Both the position numbers and the translations under genes were made by a program. A stretch of 64,000 nucleotides of DNA, from the NCBI GenBank assembly GCA_964016885.1, contig OZ024745.1, positions 89,466,001-89,530,000 of the forward strand. The letters are read 5' to 3'. This DNA comes from Eledone cirrhosa (Eukaryota). Below are positions 18,075 through 63,649 of this stretch, one piece after another. Under the pieces are notes generated by a model. That model had not been told where the DNA came from. It saw nothing but the letters and a program-made list of their open reading frames with translations, and ran no database searches. The first letter of the stretch is position 1. Every line of letters starts with the position of its first letter.

Positions 18075-18078
<4 letters not shown>

Positions 18079-21244: not shown

Positions 21245-23325
21245 GATCAAAAGATGGTTAAAAGAGTTCCATGTATTTTATTATGCGCATTTCAAAAACA
21301 AATATCATCATGCAATAACATTTGTGTTTTCATCAGATAAAATAGGAAGACATGATATGAAGGTTAAAACACACTTGTAAATAGTGCAGTTTTAAATCAA
21401 TATATGAAAAGTAGTTTTAGATTGATGTGTGATATTGGGAAAAAAAATTTGTTGAGGGGGGTGGGGGTGGAAAGGATGAAAAAGAGGAGGATATGAGAGT
21501 AAAAAGTGGTGGGGGAGGAGTATAATGAGGAAGGATGAGATAGGAGGAGAGATGGGTGATAGAGAGATAGAGATAGCATTTATAACTGAGAAAAATGTAT
21601 TGTTTTACATAGAGAGGTTGAAAAACCGTTGGAAGATAATATATAAATTAAAAGAATTTGAAAATTAACGAAGAGAAAAATAATGTTAAGTTAAGGTTTG
21701 TATATTGAAGGGTTTAATAATATGTGCGATGAAAAGTTAATTGGTAATATGTATTAAGGATAATATTTAAAGGTTTAATAATATGTGCGATGGAAAGAAA
21801 ATGTTGATATGTATTATTTAAAAAAAGGCAATAGTAATGTAAGTAAGGATATATTGTGAAAGAAGTAGAAGATAGGATGAATAAGTTAGATGAGCATGAA
21901 AGGGAGAAAAAAATAAGGATGAATAATCTAACGTCAAAAAAAATGTTTATGTTTACGAAGGATTTTTTCAAGGTGATATAAAGTAAGAATATATTGTACT
22001 GTGTAATAATTGTTTCTATGTTAGGCATAATGAGAAAAGGTACAGATTAGGGGTTACAAATTAAAAGAAAAAGAAAAGAAAAGGAAAAGGAAGAAAGGGA
22101 AGTGATAAATAGGAGTCATATAGAATCAGTAACTAGTATTATATAATGTATAACAAATAACTTTGACATAAGGTAGAAAGATGGGTATATTTTTAAAGAA
22201 GTATATATATATATATATATATGTGCCTTTGAGAAAAGGATTTTAAATTGATAAAGTATTAGATATTAGCTATATACTTTATGGAATGTTCTGTGGAATT
22301 TATGCAAGCAGAGAGAAAACAAGTCAGTGCGTCTATTTATTATAGAATCTGAATTAGATATAATGGTAAATTTTTCATTTAAACAGAGATTGCAAGTCTT
22401 GGATAGAGAACTGTTCAATCCATGGAGAAGCAGAAGAAACCTTTTTCCAAGAGATGTTATATTTAATATTTTTGTCTTTCAAGGACCATATGAGTTCTGA
22501 GAGTGCCGTGTTGGTTCTTTTAAGTTGGTATTTAAAAGTCGAATGATGATTATAAAGACGAGCTTTAAAGGACGTGGAAGTGGAGCCAAAATAGGTGAAG
22601 GAATTGGTGTCAGTTATAACTTTACATTCGTAGATTAAGTTTTTTTCAAGACAATGGTTGTTGAGAGGACATTTATTTTTAACAGGGCAATTGCAATTGC
22701 GATTAGAGAGATTAGCAGAGTTATTAACGAGTGACCTAGTGTTATCTATAGAAGGAATTGGATTGGAGAAGTTATTTACGATAGGAATAATAGTTTCTTG
22801 ATTTAGAATGGGATTAAGAACATTTAGCGAAGTTGTGTTTGACGTTGTATTTGGGTTTGTAGAAATTAGCCTAGAGTTTACAATGACGTCGGGAGTACTA
22901 TTACTATTATTATGATATTCAGTGTTGGAAGGAAGAGATTCTTAGTATTTTATTGTTGTGTTTAGAGATAATGTTGGAAATGTTGGAGGAGGTCGAATAG
23001 GAAAATTTTATAGTGTGTTTGTTAAATATTTTACTATAGATATGTGAGGGAGGGAAACATTTATTTAAGGCACTAAAGAATAATTTAGGAATATTATTAT
23101 TAATAGAGATGGAGAAAGGAGCATTATACCAGATTATGTTTTTGTATCTAGGTCTTTTATTAAAGTTATTGGAATGATCAAGATTAATTATTCTACTGTA
23201 AGATCTTCTATAATTTGTTTCTTTACTATATTTGATTTTATCAGGAAAGCCGGCTTTAGAAAGCGCGTTATTATAGTATTACTCCAGTCCTACAAACTGT
23301 AGAGTGCTTCTTATCCGATATCTGC
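21245..23325 (-). mobile_element. Degenerate Hydra-clade-like PLE 3' half, not in the ORF track
   Basis: Hand translation of 22290-22710(-): CNCPVKNKCPLNNHCLEKNLIYECKV...YFGSTSTSFKARLYNHHSTF...LSELIWSLKDKNIKYNISW...CNLCLNEK. YYNNALSKAGF lies near 23260. Confidence 0.85.
21274..21344 (-). ncRNA. Intact minimal type I hammerhead in the PLE 3' UTR
   Basis: UAUUUUAU CUGAUGA [36-nt hairpin] GAAA UGCGCA UA AUAAAAUA. Perfect 8-bp helix I; palindromic helix III. Confidence 0.88.
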
Positions 23326-24782: not shown

Positions 24783-26190
24783 TATAAACGGAAAAAATGA
24801 AACGAAATTTCATTTCCCACTCTTAGTACGGCTGTTACTTAAATATAAGTATGTATACGTACATACATATATGTATACAGACGTACAGTAGTATGTATAT
24901 ATATATACATACATGCACACATATATATATATACGCATGGATTCACCAAACATTTCTTATAATGCTCGGTGTGTTTGTAAACAGACATCCCGTATTAAGC
25001 CGTAGTGTCTAGCAACCACCGTTGCTCGTTTGTTCAACACTGGCAAAGGAACGCTGTACTAGTTTCAAGCTTGTTAGCTATCGTGAGTAACGTATACCTT
25101 CCTGCCAGATAGTTGAACGTCCGAAGGTATATACTTTCCTCATGCATATTAACGGCTGAGTAGCCCGATTTGCATATCGAGTGGGTTAATCGGCCGGGTG
25201 CACCGAAAACGATAAACGGAAAAAATGAAACGATATTTCATTTCCCACACTTAGTACGGCTGTTACTTAAATATAAGTATGTATACGTACATACATATAT
25301 GTATACAGACGTACAATAGTATGTATATAAACATACTTATATTTAAGTAACAGCCGTACTAAGAGTGGGAAATTAAATTTCGTTTCATTTTTCCGTTTAT
25401 CGTTTTCGGTGCACCCGGCCGATTAACCCACTCGATATGCAAATCGGGCTACTCAACCGTTAATATGCATGAGGAAAGTATATACCTTCGGACGTTCAAC
25501 TATCTGGCAGGAAGGTATACGTTGCTGACGATAGCTAACAAGCTTGAAACTAGTACAGCGTTCTTTGTCAGTGTTGAACAAACGAGCAACGGTAGCTGCT
25601 AGACACTACGGCTTAATGCGGGATGTTTGTTTACAAACACACCGAGCATTATAATAAATGTTTGGTGAATCCATACGTACATATATATATATGTGTGCAT
25701 GTATGTATATATACATACTACTGTACGTCTGTATACATATATGTATGTACGTAAACATACGTATATTTAAGTAACAGCCGTACTAAGAGTGGGAAATGAA
25801 ATTTCGTTTCATTTTTTCCGTTTATCGTTTTGGTGCACCAGGCCTATTAACCCACTTGATATGCAAATTGGGCTACTCATCCGTTAATATGCATAAGGAA
25901 AGTATATACTTTCGGACGTTCAACTATCTAGCAGGAAGGTATACGTTGCTGGCGATAGGTAACAAGCTTGAAACTAGTACAGCGTTCCTTTGTCAGTGTT
26001 GAACAAACGAGCAACGGTGGTTGCTAGACACTACGGCTTAATACGGGATGTTTGTTTAGAAACACACCGAGCATTATAATAAATGTTTGGTGAATCCATA
26101 CGTACATATATATATATGTGTGCATGTATGTATATATATATATACATACTACTGTACGTCTGTATACATATATGTATGTACGTATACATA
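24783..26190. mobile_element. ORF-less 424-nt tandem repeat with one hammerhead per unit (retrozyme-like); about 1.3 units on minus, then 2 units on plus
   Basis: Orientation flips at about 25330; predicted cleavage sites at 25555 and 25979; (TA)n at both ends. Confidence 0.85.
25519..25561 (+). ncRNA. Intact minimal type I hammerhead
   Basis: ACGUUG CUGACGA U AGCU-AACA-AGCU U GAAA CUAG UA CAGCGU; mutated sister copies at 25943-25985(+) and about 25051-25093(-). Confidence 0.88.
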
Positions 26191-26191
26191 G

Positions 26192-26267
<76 letters not shown>

Positions 26268-28382: not shown

Positions 28383-31300
28383 CCCCGTGACCAAGAAATA
28401 CCGGGATGGCGGCCGGCGGGGAATAGCCGTGTCTCTAGGGAAGAACGACCCCTCTAGTCTTGGTTGACACTCGTTCTAGAAGTGGTAACACGAAATGATT
28501 ACCCCTTGGCGGATAACGATAAAACGCGACAAAATAAAGTAAATGTCTAATAATAAAATCTCATACCGGATCGGCCGTCACCCGGGTAAAAAAGGGCCGC
28601 GTCCCTCAGAGAGGAACCAGACTGGGGTCGAAAGATCAGCTAATGGTTCAAACCTTCCCATCACTTCGGAGCTGGAGACCTCCCATAACCGGAATACTCC
28701 TACTGTTGGCCACCACCAAGAAATCCAAAGAAAACGAGAGAAAAATGGTCAAGGGAAGATAATAAAGAAGTCCTTGAGGCTTTCTACACTGCCCTGTACT
28801 ACCCATCAAATACATCGAATACAGAACATACATATATCAACAGGAAAAAGAAACATCCCGAAAACAGAGGCTATATTGACAGTAACAAACTAGCCAATAT
28901 ACGAAGAAATATTGTAAGAAAAAAAGTTACTAACTGATATAGAAATTGATCAGATCAAGCTATTGGCACAAAGTCAGCGAAGGGAAAATGAAACATGTGT
29001 CAGTAAAAACGAGGTAAACTGTAACACTTCGAACCCCAGGGTTGGGGCGGAATCACTGGCAACAGAACAAATTAAAGAAAGGATCGAAAAAGTGGAGGGA
29101 GTGCATGCTCAGGATGAAACTCCAAATGAAAATAATGAGATCGTAAATGATAAAGAAATGAATGAGAATGAACTTGCCAACTTGAAGGATGAAATTATGA
29201 TCGAATGGATGAAAATGAAAGAATCTGACATGGGGCAACGAGACACCCTCCCTAAGATCCAGAACTCCAAACAGAACCAAAAGATAATACACAAGACTAA
29301 CATAATTCTCAAAAACATTATCATCACAAACAAACTAAACATTACTGATTTAAATCATCTCTATTATGCATCGGCTAAAGTCACCACTCACTTATGTGGA
29401 GTAAAGATGAAAAAACAAAGGAATTCCCACAAGAAATCTACTTGGCAAGAGAACATCAATCGCCAAATAAACCTTCTCCGATCTGACATAGAAATGTTAA
29501 CAAACTATAAAGTAGGTGAACATGTTAAACAAACTAAACTTAGAAAATTGAAAAAAAAGTACAGTATAAAATCAACATGTGACATAGACATGCTGATAGA
29601 AAAAATCAAGCAAAAGGTGTCGGCCAAAGCTGCTCGTATAAGGCGCTTTGAAAAACGATCTAGATTCTATAAGGACAATAATATGTTCAAAAACAACCAA
29701 AGAAACTTCTACAGAAAAATTGGTAAGTCAACAATAACTGCTAAATCAATACCACCCAAGGAGGAAGTGCAAGAATTCTGGGAAAAATCTGGGCCGAAGA
29801 AAAAGTTCATAACATACATGCCCCATGGATAGACAAACAAAGGAAAGATACAGGTCACCTTGAGGAACAAATATGGGAAAATATAACAGTTGAACAGTTG
29901 CGCTTGGCTCTAAGAAGAACCAGCAAATGGAAATCCCCAGGAAAAGACAAAATACAAAACTTTTGGATAAATGCCTTCACAGAGTCTCATGAGCTGTTAG
30001 CCCAACTTTACAATGAAATAGTTAAGGAGCCAGAAAAGATACCATCATGGCTAGTTAACGGCATTACATTCCTGCTTCCGAAGAATGATGAGACAAACAA
30101 TCCCAAAAATTACAGACCGATAACTTGCTTGACCACAATGTATAAAATTTTAACATCAGTCCTAACTGAATACACATATGACCACCTGATAACAAATGAC
30201 CTATTTCCCATTGAGCAGAAAGGGTGTAAACGAGGCACATATGGCTGTAAGGATCAGCTTTTAGTTAACAAAATGATACTGGAAGATTGTCATAATAGAC
30301 ACAAAAATCTATCGATTGCTTGGATAGATTATAAAAAAGCATTCGATAGTTTGCCACAGTTGGATTGAAAAATGTTTAGAGATTTTCAAAATATCCCCCG
30401 TTGTCAGGAGGTTTTTGTCATTCAGTATGAAGACATGGAAAACGACACTCCTTTTGAATAGTGAAACAAAATCACTGGAAGCTGGAGAAGTTAATATTAA
30501 TTGTGGAATTTTTCAGGGTGACTCTTTATCACCGCTTTTATTCTGCATCGCACTTATACCATTAAGTAAAATGCTCAATGAAACAAAACCTGGATATAAA
30601 GTCTATGACAAAACCATTAATCACCTGTTCTACATGGATGACCTGAAACTATTTGCAAAAAATGATGAACAATTGCAAGGGCTATTATCGACTGTGGAGC
30701 AGTTCAGTGATGACATTAAAATGGAGTTTAGACTAGATAAATGCGCCAAAGCAAGGTTCACCAGAGGAAAGCTGCTGAAGAGTTCAGACATTAATCTTGA
30801 TCGGGGGAACGTGATAAGAGAACTTGATCAAGAAAAAACTTACAAATATCTAGGTGTTTGTGAAGGAGACGAAATCAAACACTCGACAATGAGGGAAAGG
30901 ATAAGGAAGGAATGTTACCGCAGAGTAAGAGCAATCTTAAGAACGGAATTGAATGCAAGGAATAGGATCGATGCCATAAACACGCTTGCCATACCAGTAG
31001 TAACCTACAGTTACAATGTCATCAACTGGTCAAGCACAGAGATCCGTAGGCTCGATACAAAAATTCGAAAATTCTTAACCATGCACAGAATGCATCACCC
31101 TAAGGCAGATATAGATAGAATATATCTCCCTAGGAAAGAAGGAGGACGTGGGTTAATCCAGTTAGACATTGCGTTGAAAACTGCAACAATTGGATTATCT
31201 AAATATCTAAGGGAATCACATGATTGGATGATCAAACTCGTTTTGAAACACGAAAGCATCAAAAGATCATATTCCATTACAAAAGATGCACAAAGATACA

Positions 31301-31640
31301 GTAATGGACTACAAATTTCAGAAGTCCCATTTACTGCTGAAATGGAAAACACAGAAAAAGCAAAGCAGGTAAAAGTAACTGCAAAGAAAGAACTGCTACA
31401 GAAACTGGCTAAGAAATGGCAAGAAAAGCCTCTGTATGGAAAATACCCAGAGCGAGCTAACAATCCTGATGTTGACAAAACTTTAACCCATCAGTGGTTG
31501 GCATCCTCTGGACTGAAATCGAAGACTGAAGGACTGATTATATCAGCACAAGATCAGTGTCTGCCACAAAAAATTACCAAGCCAACATAATAAAAAATGG
31601 ATGCAGCCCATTATGCCGTGTATGCAAAGTTGTGACTTGG
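28383..31640 (+). mobile_element. R4/Dong-clade non-LTR retrotransposon, 5' end present, frameshifted, truncated before the RLE domain
   Basis: ORFs 28543-28893, 28963-29832, 29898-30368 and 30415-31590. Motifs NYRPITCL, EQKGC, WIDYKKAFDS, GIFQGDSLSPLLF, HLFYMDDLK, GGRGL and AQDQ. Confidence 0.88.
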
Positions 31641-34270: not shown

Positions 34271-34279
34271 CCAATAATA

Positions 34280-34462
34280 ATTGTTTCTACTTTTGGCACA
34301 AGGCCAGCAATCACCCAGTGCATTACTGGTACTTTATTTTATCGACTCCCGTAATGATGAAAGGCAAAGTTAACCTCGGCGAGATTTGAAATCAGAACAT
34401 AAAGGGCCGTAACTCTATGCGTCAAAGCATGGTGTGCGACCCTCTACCGATACTGCCAATCC
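34280..34462 (-). mobile_element. tRNA-derived SINE
   Basis: Family sequence. Confidence 0.85.
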
Positions 34463-34465
34463 AAT

Positions 34466-40147: not shown

Positions 40148-40633
40148 AATGATGAAACCTAACTCTGAGCATCCATATTATTTGGAAGTCCTAAATAAGG
40201 AAGAAACCATGGTAGAGATATAATTACGGTATGTGCGCATTTCTTCTAAGTTTAATTTGACTACTAATTATGTGTGGTTGATGGTATATTTAGTCGGATC
40301 CTACATGCTGTCGAAATGTTGGATAAATAATGGAACGGGGCCGACGCGAAGAGGCTACGATCGATTATTTGTCGGAGATTTCCCCATAAGAGAATTTATT
40401 CTTATAACTTGCTAGGATGGATTTTGTATATGGTTAATTATGCTGATTAGAAGAAGAAATAGTATATATTTTAATATCTGATGATTCATAAGACATGATT
40501 TATGATATATATATATATATATATATATATGAATGTATATATAGTGTATTTTGCAATACACTGTATGCTTAATTAAAATCATTTCGAAGACCTTACGCTA
40601 TTGTTTTAGAGTAGTGACAGTCTCACTTACTTC

Positions 40634-40730
40634 AATTTTCAGCAAACAGGGGAGATAAAGCTGACAGAGCTCTGTTTCGCACTTGTTGGTGCTTATCAAA
40701 GCTAACTACTCCGCCTGTTTGCTGAAAATT
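40634..40730 (-). ncRNA. Type I hammerhead, U3-A8 core, long helix I
   Basis: AGCU UUGAUAA GCAC-CAACAA-GUGC GAAA CAGAGCUCUG UC AGCU, extended by AAUUUUCAGCAAACAG/CUGUUUGCUGAAAAUU. Confidence 0.85.
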
Positions 40731-40975
40731 ATGAATGGTTGATTCTCATAGAATTCCAATAGCGTAAGGTCTTCGAAATGCTTTTAATTAAGCATACAGT
40801 GTATTGAAAAATACACTATATATACATTCATATATATATCGCTATTTCAGAGCACCAATTCTAATTTTCAATTTCTGCTTGACCGGCAACCGCTCTGTAT
40901 AATCAGTTCCTGATTATTACTGGAATTCTATAAGAATGAAACATTCATAATTTTCAGCAAAAAAGCGGAGTAGTT

Positions 40976-41020
40976 AGCTTTGATAAGCACCAAAAAGTGC
41001 GAAACAGGGCTCTGTCAGCT
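40976..41020 (+). ncRNA. Type I hammerhead, U3-A8 core (second copy)
   Basis: AGCU UUGAUAA GCAC-CAAAAA-GUGC GAAA CAGGGCUCUG UC AGCU. Confidence 0.85.
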
Positions 41021-41204
41021 TTATCTCCCCTGTTTACTGAAAATTGAAGTAAGTGAGAGTGTCACTACTCTAAAACAATAGCGTAAGGTCTTCGAAATGC
41101 TTTTAATTAAGCATACAGTGTATTGCAAAATACACTATATATATACATTCATATATATATTGCTATTTCAGAGCACCAATTCTAATTTTATATATATATA
41201 CATA

Positions 41205-43042: not shown

Positions 43043-44590
<1,548 letters not shown>

Positions 44591-44591
44591 T

Positions 44592-44662
<71 letters not shown>

Positions 44663-44667
44663 GTACA

Positions 44668-45616
44668 TTATGAAGAGAGAAGAAACATTTAGATATAATT
44701 AGTAATAAAATGTATCATACCTAAACTGCTTCTAGATTCCTCGACTACGTAGTTTCGTGGCATAAACAAAAACAATACATCATAAAGATATAGAGCTTTT
44801 GCGAGGTCTGCCGACTTATCAAGAGGATACCTCGTTTTACTAGCTTCAAGAATGCGTCTATATGCTGTGAGAAAGAATCCCAAAAGGCGGAGGGGGAGAT
44901 AGTCACGTGATACAACGGTCAAGAAACAGAGCTAAGCCTCTTATAACCCCGAAAGAAATACCACAGAGGTGAAGGGGGTATTTATATCGAAGCCGTAGAA
45001 GAGGTGGTGAAGGGGGCGAGAAGTATGAGTAATGGGAGCTTTCCAGCAGTCACCACACTTCAAAGATTACTCGACCAGAGGGAGTTATGAACAATATATT
45101 GCCTCCTTCACCACCTCTTCTACGGCTTCGATATAAATACCCCCTCCGCCTCTGTGGTATTTTTTTCGGTGTTATAAGGGGATTAGCTATGTTTCTTGAC
45201 CGTTGTATCACGTGACTATCTCCCCCTCCGCCTTTTGGGATTCTTTCTCACATCATATAGACGCCTTCTTGAAGCTAGTAAAACGAGGTATCCTCTTGAT
45301 AAGTCGGCAGACCTCGCAAAAGCTCTATATCTTTATGATGTATTGTTTTTGTTTATGCCACGAAACTACGTAGTCGAGGAATCTAGAAGCAGTTTAGGTA
45401 TGATACATTTTATTACTAATTATATCTAAATGTTTCTTCTCTCTTCATAATGTACTTTTAGCTCTGATACTGGTTCAGTCTAATCCAACCGGATTGGTCT
45501 GTCCAAGTTATTCATAGAGCAACATCGGTTAAGGTTGGCACCATTAACTCAAGGATGGATGTGGATATATTCATGTATATGTGTGTGTCCGCAGGTATCT
45601 GTGTGTTTCTAAATAT

Positions 45617-45617
<1 letters not shown>
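44668..45617. mobile_element. ORF-less HHR element (about 581-nt family), head-to-head inverted pair
   Basis: 44668-45012 is the reverse complement of 45103-45450; same family as 58780-59930. Confidence 0.85.
45291..45380 (+). ncRNA. Type I hammerhead, U3-A8 core, enlarged loop II (mirror copy at 44738-44827 on minus)
   Basis: UCCUC UUGAUAA GU(C)GGCA-[about 46 nt]-UGCCAC GAAA CUACGUAG UC GAGGA. Confidence 0.85.
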
Positions 45618-45652
<35 letters not shown>

Positions 45653-45895: not shown

Positions 45896-48055
45896 CAGGG
45901 CTTGACATGTGGTGGCTTCTGGGATGTGTTATTGTGGAGGGGGCGGATACCGTTCCGATAGAAGTTACAAGAACTGCCAGAGAGGACTGGTCCGGGGTTG
46001 ACCTGGAGATACGCCCGAGAATGTGAAGACAATCCCAGATCACATTCGCCTTCAGAATGGAACGCTCATTCATATTATGACCGAGGATACAAGGCCGCAT
46101 TGTTTTGTTTGTGGGGTAAAAACCCATTTGCGAGCCTTCTGCCCTCAACTGGTGAAAGATGCGTGGGGTCGAAGGGCTCCACTGCTGCCGACGATGGGGC
46201 GAGGACCACAACCAACATCAGCACCGGCAATACCAGCAGCAACAACACCAATAGAAAGACCACCACCAACATTGACCACCCAGGGGGGAAACGAGGGAAG
46301 ATGTCAAATCCCCCCCCCCCAAAAAAAAATACACACATCAATAAAAAACATAAACACACGCACAGACACACTTACAGTCTCTCAGACCCATCATCTACCA
46401 GTAGTGAAGATGAGGGAAAACCAAAATCCCCCAAAATACAAAAAAGGAAACGCAAAAAGAAAAGAAAAACTCAACAAAGCACAAATCATCCACAATAAAA
46501 ATTTCAGACACCACCCACGCAAACATCTCCCCAATAACACCAACATCAACACCACCATCACCATCGCCAGATTTCCGCAAACGCAAACAACCTAAACAGA
46601 CGCAAGAACAAATACACCCACAAACATCTGAAACCGCAGACACCGCACTCATAACGAACACAGACGCAACCGAAACAACACCATCAAAACCATCACCACT
46701 ACAGCCACGCAAACAAATAAAATCATACCACCAAAACATACAAAACTTCATGCTCGTCAGAAGGGCCAACAAGGAACTGATGGCCCTCATAGCACGAAGT
46801 GAAGATATACAAAAAGAGGGGAGAATTTTTAAATCGAGCACATTTTGCGTGCCGGAAGATTTGTTTCTGGTGCGAATGTCGCTCGATTTATATAAAAAGA
46901 TACAAGAGAGCTTTCCTCGAGACGTGGGAACCTCGAACGTAAAACCACCCCAAGGCTTTTAAAGGGGTTCCCAAAAGAAACCACACCAACTATGGAGGTC
47001 GAACCACCCGACCTTCACAAGAGCCCGGAAGGTAAGTAAAACTTTCCCCTCTCTCTCTTTTAACCTGCCAACATGGCCGTATTAAGAGTAGAATGTTTAA
47101 ATGTTCGAGGCCTGGGATCGTCCTGGAAGCAGGGTCACCTGCTCAACAACCTCAGGTCTCTAGAAATCGATGTAATTGCCGTCAGCGAGACCAGGATTTC
47201 CGACACGCGCGCACTAGCCCCCATTTTCGACGACTATCAGATCTTTGCATCTGTTAGTCGGCCGGGAATGGGAGGCGGGGTGGCAGTGCTTTTTGGGAAA
47301 GGCCTGGATCTCGATGTAAGGTCGATCTTCCGGAACCGGGACGGGAATTTGGTGGTGCTGGACGTGAACAATAACGATGGTGGTGTCTTTAGACTGGTGG
47401 CCGTCTACGCCACTACTGGGGCAGGACGGCCGGACTTCTTTAGACGCCTGGAATCATTTCTGGGTACGTCTCGCCCTTTACTGTTAGCGGGGGACTGGAA
47501 CGGCATCTTAGACGCACGCTAGGACTGTGTGGGTGTATCCGATAGGAGCGGGGGGGGGTGCATAAGCCTCAAGTACCTGATCAGCCAGTTCCAACTGTCT
47601 GACAGATGCCGACTAGATTTCCCTAATGCGCCAGTGTGGACCTGGACTAACCGCATAGGGTCATCTAGATCGTATATAGACAGGATATTCATTATCAAAA
47701 TAGACAGAAATAGTGTAAGCTGTCCACGTTTTAAAACGGTCGCCTATTCAGATCACAAGTTAGTGTGGGTAGAGATTGACTCTGGTCATGCGACTGTAGG
47801 TGGGTAAATTTTAGGAGGAGAGGGGTGCCCTTCCAGGGTTCTCTCGAAGCGTAGGTTCGTTCAGGATTGGTGGGGTACCTGAGCGAACCCTGGGTGATCA
47901 TCCCCCCTATTGGGGAATTTTTCTTGTATTTTTCTTGTTACTTTGTTATTGTTATTCATATTGTTTACTCGAATTTTCTGTAAAACCCCACTGTCCCAGT
48001 CTTTTGTATTGTCTCCTATATGTCGGCCCTTGTGGCCAATAAATGAAATAATTTT
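45896..48055 (+). mobile_element. Tx1/L1-clade LINE: ORF1 remnant, APE endonuclease, RT deleted, 3' UTR
   Basis: Knuckle-like CFVCGVKTHLRAFC. ORF2 47073-47807 with APE motifs LNVRGL, AVSETR, GDWN, SYIDRIF and SDHKLV (in-frame stop at 47520). Ends gtggccaataaa. Confidence 0.88.
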
Positions 48056-48451: not shown

Positions 48452-48525
<74 letters not shown>

Positions 48526-48528
<3 letters not shown>

Positions 48529-50547
48529 TCACTTTCGAACTTAACTCTAAAAGAGCAAACTTCTTAGATGTAACACTTAACACAGGATTAATAGAGCCCT
48601 TCCATAAAAATAATGAGAATCTAGCCTACATTCGTTACAACTCAAACCACCACCAATCCATAATTAACTCCATAACACATAGTATATCCTTCAGAATATG
48701 CTACCTATCTTCTAACCTAGAGATTTGTAACGAACACGCAAACTATTATAACATAGCTTTACATAAGGCAGGATAAAAGGAGGAGCTCAAATAGATACCA
48801 GATAGCGACAGCAGCAACAAACCTAACCACAGCTACACTACCCACACCTATAGAAATAACAAACATAGGACAAAACATAGAATTAGACAACGAGCACCAG
48901 AAATAACTGAACCGAACACTAATATAAGGGTCCCTGGGTACTATAGAAGATCCAGGGATAGGAAATAATTATGGTTCAATCCAATATTCAACTCCTCTAT
49001 AAAAAACAAACTACCTTCTACATTCTTTAAGCTAATCGACAAACACTTCCCTAAACTACACAAATATCTTAGAATCTTTAATAGAAGAACTATCAAACTA
49101 TCTTACTCTACTGCAGTCAACATAGTAGCACACATACATAAAATCAACCACAAAATTATCTCTAAAGAAAATAACCTACCAACATACGCCATAGCACCAA
49201 ATACAAAACGCAAACACATAAAAACATCGCAACCACAAAAACATCAGAGCGCATCACAACAAAACATTAATAGGCCTAAATCTTAACCCACCAATAACAA
49301 AATCCAAAACCGCAACGGAGAACTAGCACACAGAAAAGACTCCAACTGTAACTGCCACCTACTGGATAAGTGCCTACTACAAAATAGATGCCTTGATTCA
49401 AGTATGGTGTACCTGTGCACTATAAATTCATGCAACTTTACTTGGCACTACATAGGTTCCACGGCTAGGGAGGTCAAAAAAAGATGGTACGTGCACAGAC
49501 ACTCCATAAAGAATCGTAGACTGGAGAACTCTACAACGCTGGCCAATAAAATCTGGTAGCTTAAAAACACAAACCAGGAATATAGGATTAGCTGGTCAAG
49601 ATTATCGGGAGCAAGGGCATATTACAATGGAATGTCCTATTGCAGACTTTGCAATATTGAGCTATTCCATATGTTAAGGTACGATAAGATGCTGTTTAAC
49701 AACAAAATAGAAACATCAATTTTCTGTAGGCACAAAATAGCTACCATGTTCACAAATTTCAAACCACCGTGATTCGACCCAGCAATCCCTAAATTAGAAC
49801 TGAACCACCCGAATTTTAACGTACGGAATACATAGCATCACACCGCTATTAGCTGTCAAACAGCCAACTGGTCACTAGATCATAAATCTCTTAACATCTC
49901 TTTCACCCTCTCTCTCTGAAACCACATTAAGACAAGACAATCAGCAAAACATTTACCACACAAACACTTGTCAATAACCCCTTTCAGCATCCACCCTTAG
50001 CCCTTGGGTCTCATACTAGTATCTCCCACTTAATTTCTAATTTATTGCTTTTTCTTTTATCTGTCATTTGTTACTACCTCAGATTCTCTACACGTATCTA
50101 TGTATGTTTCGAATATGGCTTTTCATGTTAGCACTACGTCCACCCCACCATCCTTATACAGGCACTTGCTCACCACCACCTCTATCATATTCTGTACTTA
50201 TATCCTCTCACTTATCTTTACTTCTTTATATTTTTATTATTTTTCCATTTTCTTGCTTTTTTATTGTATCTTTTTTCTTACTTTTTTTACTTTTTACATG
50301 TGTAACTTCTTTACCTATTTATCATATAGTTTATTATTGCTGTTATTGTTTTGAGTCTACGCTATTTCTCTATATATATATCATGCCATGTATAAATTAT
50401 TTGTATTCGGAGGATTTGAACAGAGGTAAATAATGTATTGGAGATCGAGTGACGCAACTTAGAGCGATTAGCGGCCTCTACTAGACTCACCTGATCAATG
50501 AAATAAAGCCCCTTGTTGTACAGCCGACCATGTTACTCTTCAATCTT

Positions 50548-51121: not shown

Positions 51122-51640
51122 AGGTGGAATGTTCGATTCAAACTTCAGTAAAATGCAAGCATAACAGACCGGATATAGTTATATGGGACAGAGAAACGAC
51201 GTCATGCACAGTAGTGGAAATTAGTTGCCCAGCAGATGTTAATATAATGTTAAAGGGCAGTGGATTAGCAGTATCGGTGGAGGTTCGGACACCCTTCTTT
51301 CCAGAATAGAGTTACGTCCCTTCAAGGTCTGAGTTCAAATCCCGCCGAGGTTAACTTTGCCTTTCATCCTTACGGGGTCGATAAAATAAAGTGCTAGTAA
51401 TACACTGGGACAATTGCTGGCCTTTTGCCAATGTAGAAACAATATAATGCTAAAGTTTAGCGAAAGGGCGAAGATTTATGCTGAACTAATAAGAAATCTG
51501 CAGATACTCCACCCTTAATATATCTTTAGATTTGTATCTGTGGATTGGGGTACTTGGATATGTTACTATTTGCCTTAGTACAAGTCTTGAAAGCTGGGAT
51601 TCACGGAACCAGAATCATCACGAGTAAATAGAAAGTTGCA
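51122..51640 (+). pseudogene. R4/Dong-type RLE fragment interrupted by a SINE
   Basis: KHNRPDIVIWD...VVEISCPADVN; homology resumes after 51455. Confidence 0.8.
51256..51440 (+). mobile_element. tRNA-derived SINE with 15-bp target-site duplication
   Basis: B-box gagttcaaatc; aatataatg(t/c)taaag at 51241 and 51441. Confidence 0.9.
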
Positions 51641-53932: not shown

Positions 53933-53994
<62 letters not shown>

Positions 53995-53995
<1 letters not shown>

Positions 53996-54135
53996 TTCTA
54001 CTATAGGCACAAGGCCAGTAATTTGGGGGGAGGGGAAAATCGATTAAATTGACCCCAGTACGTTACTGGTGCTTTATTTTATCGACCCCGTAAGATGAAA
54101 GGCAAAGTTAACCTCGGTGGGATTTGAACTCAGTC
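53995..54135 (-). mobile_element. tRNA-derived SINE, 5'-truncated, with (TAA)n tail
   Basis: Family core sequence. Confidence 0.85.
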
Positions 54136-54169
54136 CGTAAATAACCAGTCAATATTTCTTATTCTAAGA

Positions 54170-55311: not shown

Positions 55312-55772
55312 GGCGAGGGTGGTGGATTGGCAGTATTGGTAGAGCGTCGGACAACATGATTTACAGCATAGAGTTAGAGTCTTTTACAGTCTGAGTTCAA
55401 ATCTCACCGTGGTTAACTTTGCTTTTCATCATTACGGGGTCGATAAAATAAAGTACCGTTAATGTACTGGGGTCGATTCAATCGACTTTCCCCTCCTCTT
55501 TAAATTGCTGACCTTGTGTCTAAAGTAGAAACAATTATTAGAACGTGTATCATGAGTGGTGGATTGGCAGTATTGGTAGAGCGTCGCACAACATGCTTAG
55601 TGGTATGGAGTTGCGGCCCTTTACGTTCTGAGTTCAAATCCCGCTGAAGTTAGTTTTGCCTTTCATCTTTACCGGGTCGATAAAATTAAGCACCAGTAAT
55701 ACACGGGAGTCGATTTAATCGACTTTGACCTCCCCAAAAGTTGTTGGCCTTGTGTCTAAAGTAGAAACAATT
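55312..55772 (+). mobile_element. Two tandem full-length tRNA-derived SINEs
   Basis: A-box-like tggcagtattggtagagc and B-box gagttcaaatc. The central ctttcatc...ggggtcgataaa...tacc resembles the Meta/MESC SINE core as I recall it. Confidence 0.88.
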
Positions 55773-57094
55773 ATTAGAACTAGTATCTGACAGTCACTTC
55801 GTTCACAAAAACATATTTGTGGTCCGTACACAGAATGTTTCATAAGAATGAAAACATATATTGATGGAAGCTATGTAGAGATGGAGGTCGTGATAATAAG
55901 AGCAATGATGCAGTATCATGTGACATTCTAACACTAGAAATTGATTTTTGTTTAAAAGTTACTGTCGTGTTCATCAATAACATCAGCCATAAACGTTTTT
56001 CAGTTATTGTTTTGACACTGGTTTGATGTCGTTATTATTGTCTGTCATGATGGTGGCCGTCGTTGTTATTGATGTCGACTATGGCATTGTCTTCTCTGTT
56101 GTAATTACAGTTAATACTTAATTTGATTCATTTTCTCTCATATCCTGTGTTGTTTTTATTCATTCCTTTGGATATGAAGACAGACATTTGCCGGAGGAGA
56201 GAAATACTTATGTGTATGTCATAGTGTATGTGGAACAATGTATAAGTGTATGCGTACACATGTAAGTGTGTGCGTGAGTGTATGTGTCTATGTGTCAGTA
56301 TGTATGTGCGTATGAGTGTGTATGTCTGTATGTGTATGAGTGTGTGTGTGTGTATGAGTGTGCGTGTGTATCTTTGTGTATGAGTGTGCGTATGTATACG
56401 TATAAGTGTGTATGAGTATGTGTGTGTGTTTATCTATGAGTGTGTATGTGTGTGTATGTGTGTGCATGAGTGTGTATATGTGTGTGTGTATGAGTGTGTA
56501 TGTTTGTGTATGAGTGTGTATGTGTGTGTATGAATGTGCGTGTGTGTGTATGAATGTGCATGTGTATGTATGTGTGTCTGTTTGAATGTTCGTGTGTGGG
56601 CATGTGTGTATGTGTATAAGTATTTTTGATAATAATAATTTAGAAAAGAAAGTCGTTTGATGAATTTCGGCATTATTAAGAAGAAGCAACTAAGCTGTCC
56701 ATTGAAATATTAGCAGAAGCGAAGAAATAATTAAAGTAAGGAAGAAAAGCGAAGTTATGAAAACAAATTCTTGAGACCGAGTAGATTGAAGTAGGGCAAT
56801 AAAAGAATAAACAAAAAGGAAAATGGAAGACAATGAAAGAGTGACATTTCAGAATGTGTTACAGGGATGTAGTAATATCCGCTTTATCGAAACATTAGTA
56901 AAATGGAGTGGAAATTTCAGCGTAATTATATTAATAATCTGACTTTTGTCGAAATAGGGGGGGGGGTATTAGGTGTTCTCGTTCTCTTATATTTTGCTTT
57001 TTCCTTAACATTGAAAATGTGTTATATATATGAATTATAACAGATGCGTATGTATATATGTATATATGTATATATATATATGTATATATATATA

Positions 57095-57726: not shown

Positions 57727-57872
57727 TTGCTATGATTATTAATTCTTCATTGAGCCACATCTTGAATGGTTGCCAAAACACATATATATCTGTGACTTTG
57801 TCTAGTTTGTGTATATGTAAATCTTTGTATATATATATATATATATATAATGTATAAAATCAATACAATATT

Positions 57873-57950
57873 ATTACCTCATTACCAGAGGTTTCCCGAA
57901 TAAGGCGAATACGAAATAAACGACTTCATTCATTCGTCAGACGAGGCAAT
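57873..57950 (-). ncRNA. Type I hammerhead in the PLE family B 3' UTR (mutated mirror copy at 63429-63506 on plus)
   Basis: AUUGCCUCGU CUGACGA A UGAAUGA...UUAUUCG G GAAA CCUCUGG UA AUGAGGUAAU; 10-bp helix I. Confidence 0.85.
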
Positions 57951-58744
57951 ATAAAACATGGGCAAATACTTAGAAAAACACATCAAGAAAATCAAAAAAA
58001 TATATAGATAAATGAAATAGAAATTGAAATATATAAAAATCTATCAAGAAAAATAGTTAGGTGTGTGTATGTGTATGTATATACGCTCATAGATGTGCAT
58101 ATATGTATATGTGCACGTGTAAATGTATGGTTAGAAAGTGTGCGTAATTATAAAAATTTAGGGTAAATGTATCTATATGTCTGTATTATGCAGACGGAAA
58201 TGGTTACTTCGTAAAAATAAGAAAATAAAGTCGCGCGCATAAAAACGCCTGGACACTCGTACATTTAGATGCGGAAAGAAAGGAGATGAAGAGAGTATAA
58301 TAAATAAAAGAAAAGTATCTATTACGATATATTTATAAAAATATAGTAACGATAAATTAGAAAGACAAGATAGAAAGAAAAAATTAAAGAAAACAAAAAA
58401 AGCGGGGGTACATACATACACAGACACGCGTGTCTCACAAAAGAAATGTAAAAATAATTATGCTTATATACACACGCGCGCTTACACTTCCATACGTTCG
58501 ATACGTACATACACACACACACACACACACACATACTTATACTCGCGCATGCCCATGTATGAAACTGGGTAAGTAACAAAAGAGGGAAGGGGGGGGGGAG
58601 AAGAAAAAATAAAAAATAAAAAAGAACAAACAAAAAAATATAAAACCGAAATGTCAAAAACGCGGATATAAAGACACTTACACATACGCATAATATACAC
58701 ACACGCACACACACAAACACCAGTACACACACGCATACATACAC

Positions 58745-58779
<35 letters not shown>

Positions 58780-58783
<4 letters not shown>

Positions 58784-59926
58784 GAAGAGAGAAGAAACAT
58801 TTAGATATAATTAGTAATAAAATGCATCATACCTAAACTGTTCCTAAATTCCTCGACTACGTAGTTTCGTGGCATAAACAAAAACAATATATCAAAGATA
58901 TAGAGTCCTTGCGAGGTCTGCCGACTTATCAAGAGGATACCTCATTTTACTAGTCTCAAGAACGCGTCTACACGACGTGAGAAAGAATCCCAAAAGGCGG
59001 AGGGGGAGACAGTCACGCGATATAACGGTCGATATAACGGCAGACCTCGCAAGGACTCTATATCTTTGATATATTGTTTTTGTTTATGCCACGAAACTAC
59101 GTAGTCGAGGAATTTAGGAACAGTTTAGGTATGATGCATTTTATTACTAATTATATCTAAATGTTTCTTCTCTCTTCATAATGTATTTTTAACTCTGATA
59201 CTGGTTCAGTCTGGTTCAAACTGAATTGGTCTGTCCCAGTCATTCATCGGTGAAGTTGGCACCCTTCACTCACAGTTGGGTGCGGATGCATTCATGTATA
59301 TATGTGTGTGTCCGCATGTATCTGTGTGTTTCTAAATATATTAATAACTCCCTCTGGTCGAGCAATCTTTGAAGTGTGGGGACAACTGGAAAGCTTCCAT
59401 TACTCATACTTCTCGCCTTCTTCACTACCTCTTCTACGGCCTCGATATGAATACCCCCTCCGCCTCCGTGGTATTTTCTTCGTGGTTATAAGAGGCTTAG
59501 CTCTGTTTCTCGACCGTTATATCGCGTGACTGTCTCCCCCTCCGCCTTTTGGGATTCTTTCTCACGTCGTGTAGACGCGTTCTTGAGACTAGTAAAATGA
59601 GGTATCCTCTTGATAAGTCGGCAGACCTCGCAAGGACTCTATATCTTTGATATATTGTTTTTGTTTATGCCACGAAACTACGTAGTCGAGGAATTTAGGA
59701 ACAGTTTAGGTATGATGCATTTTATTACTAATTATATCTAAATGTTTCTTCTCTCTTCATAATGTATTTTTAACTCTGATACTGGTTCAGTCTGGTTCAA
59801 ACTGAATTGGTCTGTCCCAGTCATTCATTGAGCAACATCGGTGAAGTTGGCACCCTTAACTCACAGTTGGGTGCGGATGCATTCATGTATATATGTGTGT
59901 GTCCGCATGTATCTGTGTGTTTCTAA

Positions 59927-59930
<4 letters not shown>
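58780..59930. mobile_element. ORF-less HHR element nested in the PLE arm: inverted partial unit, partial unit, full unit of about 585 nt
   Basis: GAAA at 59093 and 59674 (period 581); full HHRs at 58850-58937(-) and 59605-59692(+); absent from the mirror arm. Confidence 0.88.
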
Positions 59931-59959
<29 letters not shown>

Positions 59960-60349
59960 CATGCACGCACGCGCACATACGTAGTCACTCATGTACATAT
60001 ATAAAAAAAATATACACACATTAAGGCGTTCAGCCATATTGAAATGTGGATAAATAAATACAAATATAAAATTGTAAGATAGGCGGCGCAAAAATAAAAT
60101 AAAAATAAAAATGAAAAATATATCTGGATTGGAAAACACAAAAGACAAGTATAATCAGTTAGTAGAGGAAAAAGGGAAGTAAAAGAAGGGGAAGTAAAAA
60201 ATAGAAAATAGGAAGTGGATCGGAGAATAAAGGGGGGGGGGAAGTAAAAATAAATAAAAAAATAAATAAAAGTGAAAATAAATGAAATTATCGACAAGGA
60301 TAAGAATGAAAGTAAGTCAGAAAGGGTAATTAAAAAGAGAATAATCAGA

Positions 60350-61705
60350 GTTTATGGAGGATAAGTGTCTGAAAGTGTGTTAAGTTTATATGAGCTGGAA
60401 AGCAGGTGTGATTTCATGTGTGGGCAACTGGTAACAATTTCCGTCTTTGTGTTCAGGCAGGTCTTTGGTGATTTGAGATTTTGCAATATCCAAAATTTTC
60501 ATTTATGCAGAGCGTGCATTTTCTTGTTCCTCTAGCATATTGTTTAGATTGGTTCAAAATTGACCAATCTAGTTTATATTGGATGCCTTGGTCTTTCAAA
60601 TCCCAGATTCTGCTAGCCAGAGCTGTTGTAAATCTTTTTTCTGGATGTCGGAAGGATGCGACATGTGAGTAATAACGCGTTTTGAATTTGTCTTGCGTCA
60701 TACCCACATATCGTTCACTGGTGACTGGATGGTTGTTGCTGATAGTTGTCACATTAGCCGCATATACAATGGCTTTGGTGTTGCATTTACCTTGTAATGG
60801 GCATTCACTTTTGATTCTACAGGAGCAAGTTTGATTTTCTCTAGGTGATGTTTTGTTGAGGATATAGGTCTTAATAGGGGGACCGCAGGAATAGCTAATT
60901 TTAACACATTTTCTGTTAAAGATCTTATAGTATCTATGTGTTCTAGGGAAATGTTTATCTAGGAGTTCTAGGAATTTTTTGCCTACATTAGTTTTAACTG
61001 CTAGAGAGTAGGGGGGTGTGAACCAGATTATTTTTCTTTTCCTATTTTTATGTTTAATAGAGTTAGTGTAGTTAGGTATGTATTTAATCGGTTCGCTAAA
61101 GCCGCTATTTTGGAGGGCTTTATTATAGTAGGGGGATGCCTTATTGAAAATAGCTTCTGATGAAGAGAGGGTGGAGATCCTACGGCTAATATTAGGGATA
61201 AGGTTTTTAAAAAAACTATAGGTGGATGGCAAGATCCTTTATTTATATATTTTAAGTTTTCATTAGGTTTATGGTATGGTTTATAAGAAGCAGTAGGCAA
61301 ATCTAAGTTTATATCTAGGAAATCTACGTTGGAAAGGTTAGTATCAATAGTAATTTTAAGATTAAAACTAGCAAAGGTTTTTATTAAGTCTTTCCTTAAT
61401 CTATCTAAGTTATGGCCTATGGTGGTATGGGAAAGTATTAGACCATCATCGCGATAAAGCCCAAAAATATGGTTAGGAAATTTTTCTTTAAGTGTATGTA
61501 AGAGGAATAGGCCGACCAGATCACAAACCTCGGCACTGTCATAAGAGCCCATTGAGACATCGAATGGGTTCTCTGGGTTAGATATTTTTACCCAAGTGTC
61601 ATTATCATTAAAAAGTAGAGTATTCCTAGCATGCAAGATTACGTCCTCTTCAATATCGGAGATATTAGTGAACCCTCTAGCGAAATTTAAAGCTTTCACT
61701 AAATC
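60350..61705 (-). pseudogene. PLE RT-thumb-GIY-YIG ORF, 5'-truncated, frameshifted near 61215 and 60500
   Basis: ORFs 61028-61843 and 60453-61232. Confidence 0.9.
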
Positions 61706-62174
61706 TAGAATCAAAAGTGAATGCCCATTACAAGGTAAATGCAACACCAAAGCCATTGTATATGCGGCTAATGTGACAACTATCAGCAACAACCATCCAG
61801 TCACCAGTGAACGATATGTGGGTATGACGCAAGACAAATTCAAAACGCGTTATTACTCACATGTCGCATCCTTCCGACATCCAGAAAAAAGATTTACAAC
61901 AGCTCTGGCTAGCAGAATCTGGGATTTGAAAGACCAAGGCATCCAATATAAACTAGATTGGTCAATTTTGAACCAATCTAAACAATATGCTAGAGGAACA
62001 AGAAAATGCACGCTCTGCATAAATGAAAAATTTTGGATATTGCAAAATCTCAAATCACCAAAGACCTGCCTGAACACAAAGACGGAAATTTTTACCAGTT
62101 GCCCACACATGAAATCACACCTGCTTTCCAGCTCATATAAACTTAACACACTTTCAGACACTTATCCTCCATAA
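61706..62174 (+). pseudogene. Open GIY-YIG domain of the plus arm
   Basis: C-terminal part of ORF 61596-62174; its N-terminus is antisense RT sequence. Confidence 0.85.
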
Positions 62175-62575
62175 ACTCTGATTATTCTCTTTTTAATTAC
62201 CCTTTCTGACTTACTTTCATTCTCATCCTTGTCGATAATTTCATTTATTTTCACTTTTATTTATTTTTTTATTTATTTTTACTTCACCCCCCCCCCCCCC
62301 CCCTTTATTCTCCGATCCACTTCCTATTTTCTATTTTTTACTTCCCCTTCTTTTACTTCCCTTTTTCCTCTACTAATTGATTATACTTGTCTTTTGTGTT
62401 TTCCAATCCAGATATATTTTTCATTTTTATTTTTATTTTATTTTTGCGCAGCCTATCTTACAATTTTATATTTGTATTTATTTATCCACATTTCAATATG
62501 GCTGAACGCCTTAATGTGTGTATATTTTTTTTATATATGTACATGAGTGACTACGTATGTGCGCGTGCGTGCATG

Positions 62576-62628
<53 letters not shown>

Positions 62629-63605
62629 ACGTGTATGTATGCGTGTGTGTACTGGTGTTTGTGTGTGTGCGTGTGTGTATATTATGCGTATGTGTAAGTG
62701 TCTTTATATCCGCGTTTTTGACATTTCGGTTTTATATTTTTTTGTTTCTTCTTTTTTATTTTTTATTTTTTCTTCTCCCCCCCCTTCCCTCTTTTGTTAC
62801 TTACCCAGTTTCATACATGGGCATGCTAACAGGTTTATATGCGCGAGTATAAGTATGTGTGTGTGTGTATGTACGTATCGAACGTATGGAAGTGTAAGCG
62901 CGCGTGTGTATATAAGCATAATTATTTTTACATTTCTTTTGTGAGACACGCGTGTCTGTGTATGTATGTACCCCCGCTTTTTTTGTTTTCTTTAATTTTT
63001 TCTTTCTATCTTGTCTTTCTAATTTATCGTTACTATATTTTTATAAATATATCGTAATAGATACTTTTCTTTTATTTATTATACTCTCTTCATCTCCTTT
63101 CTTTCCGCATCTAAATGTACGAGTGTCCAGGCGTTTTTATGCGCGCGACTTTATTTTCTTATTTTTACGAAGTAACCATTTCCGTCTGCATAATACAGAC
63201 ATATAGATACATTTGCCCTAAATTTTTATAATTACGCACACTTTCTAACCATACATTTACACGTGCACATATACATATATGCACATCTATGAGCGTATAT
63301 ACATACACATACACACACCTAACTATTTTTCTTGATAGATTTTTATATATTTCAATTTCTATTTCATTTATCTATATATTTTTTTGATTTTCTTGATGTG
63401 TTTTTCTAAGTATTTGCCCATGTTTTATATTGCCTCGTCTGGCGAACGAATGAAGTCGTTTATTTCGTATTCGCCTCATTCGGGAAACCTCTGGTAATAA
63501 GGTAATAATATTGTATTGATTTTATACATTAAATTTTGCTTTGATACTGACATAGAGCACTCTTCATTTCTATGACCTTTTCTGTTTCTAACTGAAATTT
63601 CAATA

Positions 63606-63649
<44 letters not shown>

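What the first reader, a model, noticed from the sequence alone, without database searches (positions are those of the whole stretch)
58780..59930. About 581-nt ORF-less ribozyme element, mobile, nested inside a Penelope arm
Seen: the unit end (gtgtttctaaatata) joins directly to the unit start (ataactccctc) at about 59340 with no coding sequence between. A second locus at 44668-45617 has scattered substitutions, but the HHR core and helices are invariant and differences within the motif fall only in loop II. The element sits in the (TA)n of one arm of the PLE palindrome only, so it inserted later. Inference: a non-autonomous retrozyme-like family that makes unit-length, possibly circular, RNA and is mobilised by PLE proteins. 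It is longer than the animal retrozymes I recall (roughly 150-400 nt).
Basis: partly seen in the sequence, partly recalled or inferred. Interest (0 to 1): 0.78.

Follow-up and report, generated by a model that had tools for sequence, protein, structure and literature searches.

The report
Retrozyme pasted with Penelope-type ends
This is a 591-base, protein-free jumping repeat with a hammerhead (self-cutting RNA) motif, a kind already known in animals, and both of its insertions here have the back-to-back, uneven-ended layout typical of Penelope retrotransposons, so it is likely copied into the genome by a borrowed Penelope enzyme, possibly from an RNA circle.

Summary
The family unit is 591 nt; the 581-nt spacing here comes from a 10-nt deletion in one copy. 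It has no ORF and carries a type I hammerhead with the published U3-A8 core and a palindromic stem III.

Both loci are two back-to-back arms in (TA)n. One arm ends at site A and the other at site B, 165-170 nt further on, and each site matches between loci within 5 nt. This is the Penelope 'inverted copy plus tail' footprint, also shown by the host element, but published tails are 30-40 nt.

Two public runs give closed 591/590-nt circular contigs through the junction, so the unit is not mainly the pseudo-LTR of an ORF. All four arms read through the cleavage site, so the template was a circle or an uncut multimer; the DNA cannot separate these. No RNA evidence was obtained. The length is within the published 51-972 bp range. 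The scan noted an apparently identical 591-nt family on other DNA of this genome.

Verdict: new member of a known kind, with a testable mechanism.

The parts
58779..59032 (-). L1 inverted arm: 5'-truncated unit with a complete hammerhead (58851-58936); 3' end at site A, abutting (TA)n
   Evidence: 0 differences in 251 nt to the full unit
59038..59343 (+). L1 long arm, second turn: 3' half of a unit starting inside stem II (hammerhead incomplete; cleavage site after 59106), tail with a 10-nt deletion, then the junction
59340..59344 (+). Head-to-tail junction (unit end joined to unit start, no ORF)
   Evidence: crossed by single contigs in runs X1 and X6
59344..59932 (+). L1 full unit (591-nt monomer less the last junction bases); 3' end at site B, abutting (TA)n
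59605..59692 (+). Type I hammerhead motif: 5-bp stem I, U3-A8 core, 6-bp stem II with a two-stem loop II extension, palindromic 10-nt stem III, predicted cleavage after 59687
59688..59758 (+). Predicted long hairpin just 3' of the cleavage site; it competes for the 3' strand of stem I
   Evidence: z -4.5 in L1, -3.7 in L2
59761..59768 (+). Site A: where the inverted arms end (L1 at about 59761-59763; L2 5 nt further)
59763..59932 (+). Tail of 165-170 nt, present on one arm only; predicted to be structured
   Evidence: (z -5.9 in L1, -3.0 in L2)
59927..59936 (+). Site B: where the long arms end (L1 by 59932; L2 about 4 nt further in unit coordinates)
   Evidence: 5 contigs of run X3 leave the unit into (TA)n at the matching place 59341
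58749..58780 (.). (TA)n target, left part
59927..59953 (.). (TA)n target, right part
44662..45100 (-). L2 inverted arm: site A back through the hammerhead (44739-44826) to the unit start, plus about 10 nt matching the unit end
45101..45620 (+). L2 long arm: 5'-truncated unit with hammerhead (45292-45379) and tail, ending at site B in (TA)n
57845..63608 (.). Host: palindromic 5'-truncated PLE with Hydra-clade motifs (RT 61028-61849 on -, GIY-YIG on both arms), its own hammerhead, and a ~74-nt tail on the right arm only

Best explanation
The element is a 591-nt protein-free repeat with a hammerhead motif, inserted twice in this window as back-to-back arms with fixed unequal ends in (TA)n, and it is likely a non-LTR retrozyme copied in trans by a Penelope-type reverse transcriptase, probably from a ligated RNA circle. 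Shown: no ORF; the head-to-tail junction; an intact, conserved hammerhead motif; two inverted arms per locus; ends at sites A and B, 165-170 nt apart; all four arms pass the cleavage site; a (TA)n target. Inferred: (1) Tandem copies elsewhere are transcribed into multimers; the promoter is unknown. (2) Hammerheads pair through the palindromic stem III, cut as dimers, and a host ligase closes 591-nt circles in which the ribozyme is predicted to be folded shut. (3) A dimeric PLE RT/GIY-YIG protein of a (TA)n-targeting clade cuts both strands of a (TA)n tract. (4) Each DNA 3' end primes reverse transcription internally, one at site A and one at site B, and one enzyme can run more than one turn (889 nt, 1.5 units, at L1). 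(5) The two cDNAs are joined at their far ends by slippage or microhomology, giving the palindrome. My odds: about 0.88 for 'non-autonomous and PLE-mobilised', about 0.5 for the whole path including the circle.
For: No coding remnant. No similarity to any PLE end in the window beyond simple repeats. The junction is the family's main path: runs X1 and X6 (different studies) each give one closed contig of 621 and 620 nt, i.e. a 591- or 590-nt unit plus the 30-nt k-mer overlap, crossing the junction (2 of 4 runs laid). L2's inverted arm also reaches about 10 nt into the unit end. Fixed ends: both loci end within 5 nt of the same two sites, and 5 contigs of X3 leave into (TA)n at site B. The same geometry is seen in the host PLE (74-nt tail) and a 321-nt element (about 30-nt tail). 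Craig 2021 describes the inverted 5'-truncated copy plus one-ended tail as PLE traits. Frangieh 2024 shows that a PLE protein cuts and extends both strands of AT-rich DNA and starts at two internal RNA sites that bound the tail. Selection on the RNA: 0 of 43 core and stem sites differ (p=0.009); 7 of 7 changes at paired sites in the helices checked keep pairing, all one-sided; the circle folds at z -6.9 against 60 shuffles. One template at L1: two variants nearly absent from run X3 (59717 G, where A has 329,687 of 329,818 summed depth; 59532 G) are shared by all L1 copies of those sites. Animal retrozymes accumulate mainly as circles (Cervera 2020).
Against: There is no RNA evidence of any kind. 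A closed contig arises equally from tandem DNA, and Logan assembly drops rare branches, so a low-copy autonomous partner is not excluded; 80 loose ends were not shown. Run X2 gave no contig across the junction. The two turns at L1 differ by a 10-nt deletion and one substitution. The L2 arms differ at 10 sites, all in the 191-nt head and none in the 159-nt ribozyme-to-site-A part (p=0.002), which fits two different templates better than one circle. In the only PLE assayed in vitro, unprocessed RNA was the dominant substrate and ribozyme mutants inserted normally. The active fold is predicted 4-5 kcal/mol above the ensemble locally and at about 0 probability in context. 8 of 9 Xenopus retrozymes did not cleave in vitro. 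The tail is 4-5 times longer than published tails. No intact partner PLE was identified. The 'private' L1 variants may be a subfamily of the window's own individual.
Confidence: 0.5

Rival explanations
1. Same element and same PLE enzyme, but the template is an uncut linear multimeric transcript of a tandem array; the hammerhead is slow or works at another step, and circles, if made, are a side product.
For: Reading through the cleavage site fits this equally well. The two L1 turns differ by two events. The L2 arm differences cluster in the variable head. PAc uses unprocessed RNA. The active fold is predicted to be disfavoured.
Against: Variants rare in X3 are shared by both arms and both turns at L1, although a source array that was itself homogeneous would give this too. 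Animal retrozyme RNAs are mostly circular.
Confidence: 0.38
2. The unit is the pseudo-LTR or 3' end of an autonomous PLE, and these loci are partial tandems of truncated copies.
For: It has all non-coding PLE marks: hammerhead, tail, inverted arm and (TA)n target. U3-A8 is known from S. mansoni Cercyon pLTRs. No genome was available to exclude a partner.
Against: In a PLE the sequence after the tail leads into the ORF; here it leads back to the same hammerhead in about 260 nt. There is no ORF remnant. Closed circles in 2 of 4 runs, and L2's inverted arm also touches the junction.
Confidence: 0.05
3. It spreads at the DNA level (satellite amplification, or MITE-/Helitron-like movement), and the palindromes are replication or repair products in (TA)n.
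For: Inverted terminal similarity and a microsatellite target; a circular contig is also what a satellite gives.
Against: The ends are unequal and fixed at two internal sites; the inner breakpoints are variable 5' truncations; the neighbouring RT-encoding PLE has the same layout; selection acts on an RNA fold.
Confidence: 0.03

Closest known systems
Animal non-LTR retrozymes (Cervera & de la Pena 2020, PMC7229834; Li, Clavereau & Pollet 2026, bioRxiv 10.64898/2026.07.22.740005)
   Same: ORF-less head-to-tail unit, one type I hammerhead per unit, GC 42%, strongly self-paired predicted circle, co-occurs with PLEs; proposed there to be PLE-derived and PLE-mobilised.
   Different: The unit (591 nt) is longer than the ~170-400 nt invertebrate examples but inside Li's 51-972 bp. 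U3-A8 core and a 44-nt structured loop II. The insertions show two inverted arms with a PLE tail, which I did not find described for retrozymes. Cleavage and circular RNA are untested here.
EN+ Penelope-like elements: insertion structure (Craig et al. 2021, PMC8557442) and PAc mechanism (Frangieh et al. 2024, PMC11167929)
   Same: Inverted 5'-truncated copy, partial tandem, one-ended tail bounded by two fixed ends, AT-rich/(TA)n target, hammerhead upstream of the tail.
   Different: No RT/EN ORF; the tail is 165-170 nt instead of 30-40 nt; the sequence after the tail returns to the unit start.
Non-autonomous Chlamys PLEs such as MRC1 (Craig et al. 2021)
   Same: Non-autonomous PLE dependants with pLTRs and multicopy head-to-tail insertions.
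   Different: [quoted passage not shown]
U3-A8 hammerheads (Perreault et al. 2011, PMC3088659; S. mansoni Cercyon PLEs, Cervera & de la Pena 2014, PMC4209133)
   Same: Same compensated core pair; short palindromic helix III suited to dimer cleavage.
   Different: Here it sits in a protein-free 591-nt unit with an extended loop II.

Membership tests
Animal non-LTR retrozyme | Type I hammerhead motif in the unit | tested here: met
   all stems pair at both loci; the core is the published U3-A8 variant. Rfam gave no hit.
Animal non-LTR retrozyme | No protein-coding capacity | tested here: met
   Longest frame 91 aa; 0 of 120 PLE proteins hit, control 120 of 120.
Animal non-LTR retrozyme | Head-to-tail (tandem) organisation | tested here: met
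   Junction at 59340-59344; closed 591/590-nt contigs in 2 of 4 runs.
Animal non-LTR retrozyme | Low GC (<45%), highly self-paired monomer | tested here: met
   GC 42.2%; circular MFE z -6.9 against 60 shuffles (a prediction).
Animal non-LTR retrozyme | Self-cleavage of the RNA | not testable with these tools
   The monomeric active fold is predicted to be disfavoured; a dimer helix of -9.5 kcal/mol is possible.
Animal non-LTR retrozyme | Accumulates as unit-length linear and circular RNA | not testable with these tools
   No RNA data were obtained.
'Active' retrozyme locus (Li 2026 definition) | Two consecutive units with complete hammerheads | tested here: not met
   The L1 + strand has one complete and one 5'-truncated hammerhead; L2 has one per strand. 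These loci are offspring, not predicted sources of monomers.
Autonomous PLE / its pLTR | Adjoining RT plus GIY-YIG ORF | tested here: not met
   Both loci; the rest of the genome was not available.
PLE-type insertion | Inverted 5'-truncated copy next to the 5' end | tested here: met
   2 of 2 loci.
PLE-type insertion | One-ended tail bounded by two fixed ends | tested here: met
   2 of 2 loci, ends within 5 nt; length 165-170 nt against 30-40 nt in print.
PLE-type insertion | AT-rich/(TA)n target | tested here: met
   4 of 4 outer ends abut (TA)n; a target-site duplication cannot be read in (TA)n.
tRNA-derived SINE / Pol III element | A and B boxes, tRNA-like head | tested here: inconclusive
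   A-box-like 13-mer at 59783 but no properly spaced B box; ARAGORN hit only at a relaxed cut-off.
Hydra-clade PLE (host element only) | CxCX5C linker, CxxC and CxH motifs, hammerhead, (TA)n target | tested here: met
   no phylogeny was built.

The most novel reading that the evidence does not exclude
A PLE reverse transcriptase dimer uses its internal-initiation ability to start at two sites 165-170 nt apart on one 591-nt ribozyme circle and copies it onto both ends of a (TA)n break. That would be the unshown step of the animal retrozyme life cycle, and would mean the PLE tail is a folded RNA domain of flexible length rather than a 30-40 nt spacer. A bolder add-on (about 0.07): the near-identical circle found in runs labelled as many different organisms moves between species as a viroid-like RNA; carry-over of a very abundant repeat explains those runs more simply.
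Probability: 0.4. Interest if true: 0.7.

Novelty: new member of a known kind. Interest (0 to 1): 0.46.

Why it matters
Which enzyme moves animal retrozymes, and whether the template is the circle, has been proposed (Cervera 2020; Li 2026) but, in the papers I found, not shown. This family gives base-level predictions for a direct test: two start sites, a 165-170 nt tail, a (TA)n target, and a candidate enzyme clade next door. The element class, its length and its U3-A8 core are already known, so the value lies in the footprint and not in the object.

Tried and rejected
No whole genome is held, so no genome-wide copy count or partner search was possible.

Rfam: 0 hits at gathering score; only simple-repeat and miRNA noise by E-value. 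Pfam: 0 families for 3 host frames; host identity rests homologues and motifs.

Metagenome contigs: 0 matches to the hammerhead pattern. Sequencing runs: no RNA holder listed. A planned second laying (raw reads and a small run of organism C) gave no result, so site-A loose ends, organism F's genome and a possible RNA run remain unexamined.

Horizontal transfer or an infectious circle as the reason for many organism labels (20 of 24 rows hold the stretch, 16 studies): judged unlikely. X1, X2 and X6 each hold one flankless, near-invariant contig at depth 8-105, against 1,642 laid contigs at about 1e5 summed depth in X3, which fits carry-over; this was not tested directly.

A stem pairing site A with site B: predicted in RNA starting at the cleavage site (P 0.55-0.73 in L1; 0.8-0.9 for 5 of 8 pairs in L2), but P=0 in the circle and absent in the host PLE; kept as a weak lead only. 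A shared 6-mer near site B in three elements is not kept in the host-family copy at 12188-12627; rejected.

A second ribozyme or an opposite-strand hammerhead in the unit: none. One search used a mis-registered structure and is discarded; it was redone. Four stem II pairs were mis-indexed and are not used. Literature searches returned nothing; and the paper gave nothing used.

Full report
SETTING. The window is repeat-rich animal DNA: 105 tandem-repeat rows, many of them (TA)n, and several decayed retroelement ORFs. Earlier scan notes call the genome cephalopod; I did not test that. No whole genome is held.

WHAT IS THERE. Locus L1 (58779-59932) is not a single unit. It has an inverted arm (58779-59032, minus strand) and a long plus-strand arm of about 889 nt: the 3' half of a unit (59038-59343), the junction, and a full unit (59344-59932). 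Locus L2 (44662-45620) is built the same way, with an inverted arm 44662-45100 and a forward arm 45101-45620. Both 3' ends face outward into (TA)n. The inverted arms stop at site A, about 75 nt past the predicted cleavage site (L2 5 nt further than L1). The forward arms stop at site B, 165-170 nt later (L2 about 4 nt further). Two unrelated insertions sharing both ends within 5 nt on a 591-nt unit would be a roughly 1-in-3,000 event if ends were uniform; this is my arithmetic and ignores AT bias. Five contigs of run X3 also leave the unit for (TA)n at site B.

UNIT LENGTH AND JUNCTION. The two cleavage sites on the L1 plus strand are 581 nt apart, but the 5' copy lacks 10 nt present in the full unit, in L2 and in runs X1, X2 and X6, so the monomer is 591 nt. 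Of 4 runs laid, X1 and X6 each gave one closed contig (621 and 620 nt = 591 or 590 plus 30) that crosses the junction with no listed difference there. X2 gave one contig broken at the junction. X3 gave 1,642 laid contigs with summed depth of order 1e5, which is not a copy number. A closed contig shows that end-to-start is the family's main path; it arises from tandem DNA as well as from a circle, and rare branches are dropped. L2's inverted arm independently runs about 10 AT-rich bases into the unit end. There is no coding remnant: the longest frame is 91 aa, and 0 of 120 PLE proteins hit either locus while all 120 hit the host.

RIBOZYME. My scan of both strands found four complete copies of a type I hammerhead at the two loci, plus the truncated one at 59092-59110. 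It has a 5-bp stem I, a U3-A8 core, a 6-bp stem II carrying a two-stem extension, and a 10-nt palindromic stem III (monomer hairpin +3.2 kcal/mol, intermolecular helix -9.5). U3-A8 is a known natural, active covariation (Perreault 2011) and occurs in S. mansoni Cercyon pLTRs; a palindromic helix III implies dimer cleavage (Cervera 2014). Between L1 and L2 (9.8% apart), 0 of 43 core and stem sites differ against 55 of 469 elsewhere (p=0.009). All 7 changes at paired sites of the helices checked keep pairing, but all are one-sided G-U exchanges from only two subfamilies. Against easy cleavage: stem I has about 0 predicted probability in context, because its 5' strand is held by an upstream 4-bp hairpin (P about 0.87) and its 3' strand by a long downstream hairpin. 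Rfam does not detect the motif.

HOST AND NESTING. The host is a palindromic truncated PLE (57845-63608) with the Hydra-clade CxCX5C, CxxC and CxH motifs, homologues of about 500-800 aa, its own canonical-core hammerhead, and the same layout with a ~74-nt tail on one arm. L1 lies in the (TA)n of the left arm only. Later insertion is the parsimonious reading, but divergences do not prove it (p=0.48). The unit shares no sequence with the host or other PLE ends in the window, so the nesting reflects a shared (TA)n target, not descent. All PLE copies I translated here are broken, so the mobilising family is unidentified.

MECHANISM. The inverted truncated copy, one-ended tail and microsatellite target are PLE traits (Craig 2021). 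The tail is the stretch between two internal RT start sites, and the PLE protein cuts and extends both strands (Frangieh 2024). Applied here (inference): each end of a cut (TA)n primes copying, one at A and one at B. All 4 arms pass the cleavage site (5 crossings, none stopping there), so a cleaved linear monomer was not the template. A circle or an uncut multimer remains. For one circle: L1's arms are identical over 251 nt, and two variants nearly absent in X3 are in every L1 copy of those sites; animal retrozyme RNA is mostly circular. For a multimer or two templates: the two L1 turns differ by a deletion and a substitution; L2's 10 arm differences all fall in the head (p=0.002); PAc prefers unprocessed RNA. 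I put the circle slightly ahead (0.5 against 0.38). The 'two enzymes on one circle' wording was in earlier scan notes before I tested it.

OTHER ORGANISMS. The unit's words are held by 20 of 24 listed runs from 16 studies under many organism labels. The three laid runs other than X3 show one flankless, near-invariant contig each at depth 8-105, and they differ only at a few sites, one of which is polymorphic in X3 (59701). Carry-over of a very abundant repeat is the simple reading; transfer between species is not excluded and was not tested.

COMPARISON AND NOVELTY. It works like, and meets every testable criterion of, an animal non-LTR retrozyme; cleavage and circular RNA are untested. Neither locus meets Li's 'active' two-ribozyme criterion. 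It is not an autonomous PLE at either locus. The length is not novel (51-972 bp). I found no paper describing two-armed PLE footprints, or a 165-170 nt tail, for animal retrozymes (searches; 'inverted' occurs 0 times in the main text of Cervera 2020). The library lacks most subscription journals. I read no supplements; Cervera's Figure S9, Craig's files and Li's tables could bear on this. The scan noted 591- and 595-nt U3-A8 arrays on other pieces of this genome; a sequence look-up returned nothing, so identity with this family rests on unit length and core.

PAPERS SEEN. Li 2026: parts 1-3 of 5 (abstract to discussion). Frangieh 2024: parts 1-2 of 4 (main text). Cervera 2020: passages plus sections 14 and 17. 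Craig 2021: passages plus section 11. Perreault 2011 and Cervera 2014: passages. PMC8490949: passages, not used. Hammerhead numbering and Pol III box consensus are recalled.

VERDICT. Real, and a new member of a known kind. Interest 0.46: the object is known, but its insertion footprint makes the open PLE/circle question directly testable.

Noticed in passing
window 40521-41189 (and a 3' fragment at 17539-17665): A second ORF-less two-armed element in (TA)n, period about 321 nt, with another U3-A8 hammerhead (40659-40703 on -, 40976-41020 on +), a palindromic stem III and a ~30-nt tail; unrelated in sequence to the 591-nt unit.
   Followed up: partly
window 24784-26200: A third inverted/tandem element, period about 425-430 nt, with a canonical-core hammerhead-like motif near 25521-25560 seen by eye, and decayed copies; it ends in (TA)n.
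   Followed up: no
window 12188-12627: An older copy (77% identity) of the host PLE's 3' end that stops at the same site B, showing fixed ends in that family too.
   Followed up: partly
window 13825-14516, 22269-23308, 48525-49787: Further broken PLE ORFs related to the host's proteins; the one at 48525 starts right after (TA)n(AG)n.
   Followed up: no
window 55316-55787, with copies at 11456-11751, 14681-14873, 20892-21086, 34277-34463, 51254-51447, 53988-54141: A dispersed repeat that looks like a tRNA-derived SINE (A- and B-box-like motifs by eye), in tandem at 55316.
   Followed up: no
window 45101-45450 versus 44668-45017: All 10 differences between L2's arms lie in the inner head region and none in the outer 185 nt; neutral ageing does not explain this.
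   Followed up: partly
window 59010-59043: At L1's inversion point an 11-nt stretch is copied twice before the switch into stem II of the other arm, a slippage/microhomology scar.
   Followed up: no
window 43162-44612, 4512-5789, 18033-19302: Another GIY-YIG element family whose copies end in (TA)n; L2 is inserted in the (TA)n at the end of one of them.
   Followed up: no
window 28918-31590 and 45962-47522: Decayed non-LTR retrotransposon-like ORFs (RT-like and APE-endonuclease-like by eye).
   Followed up: no
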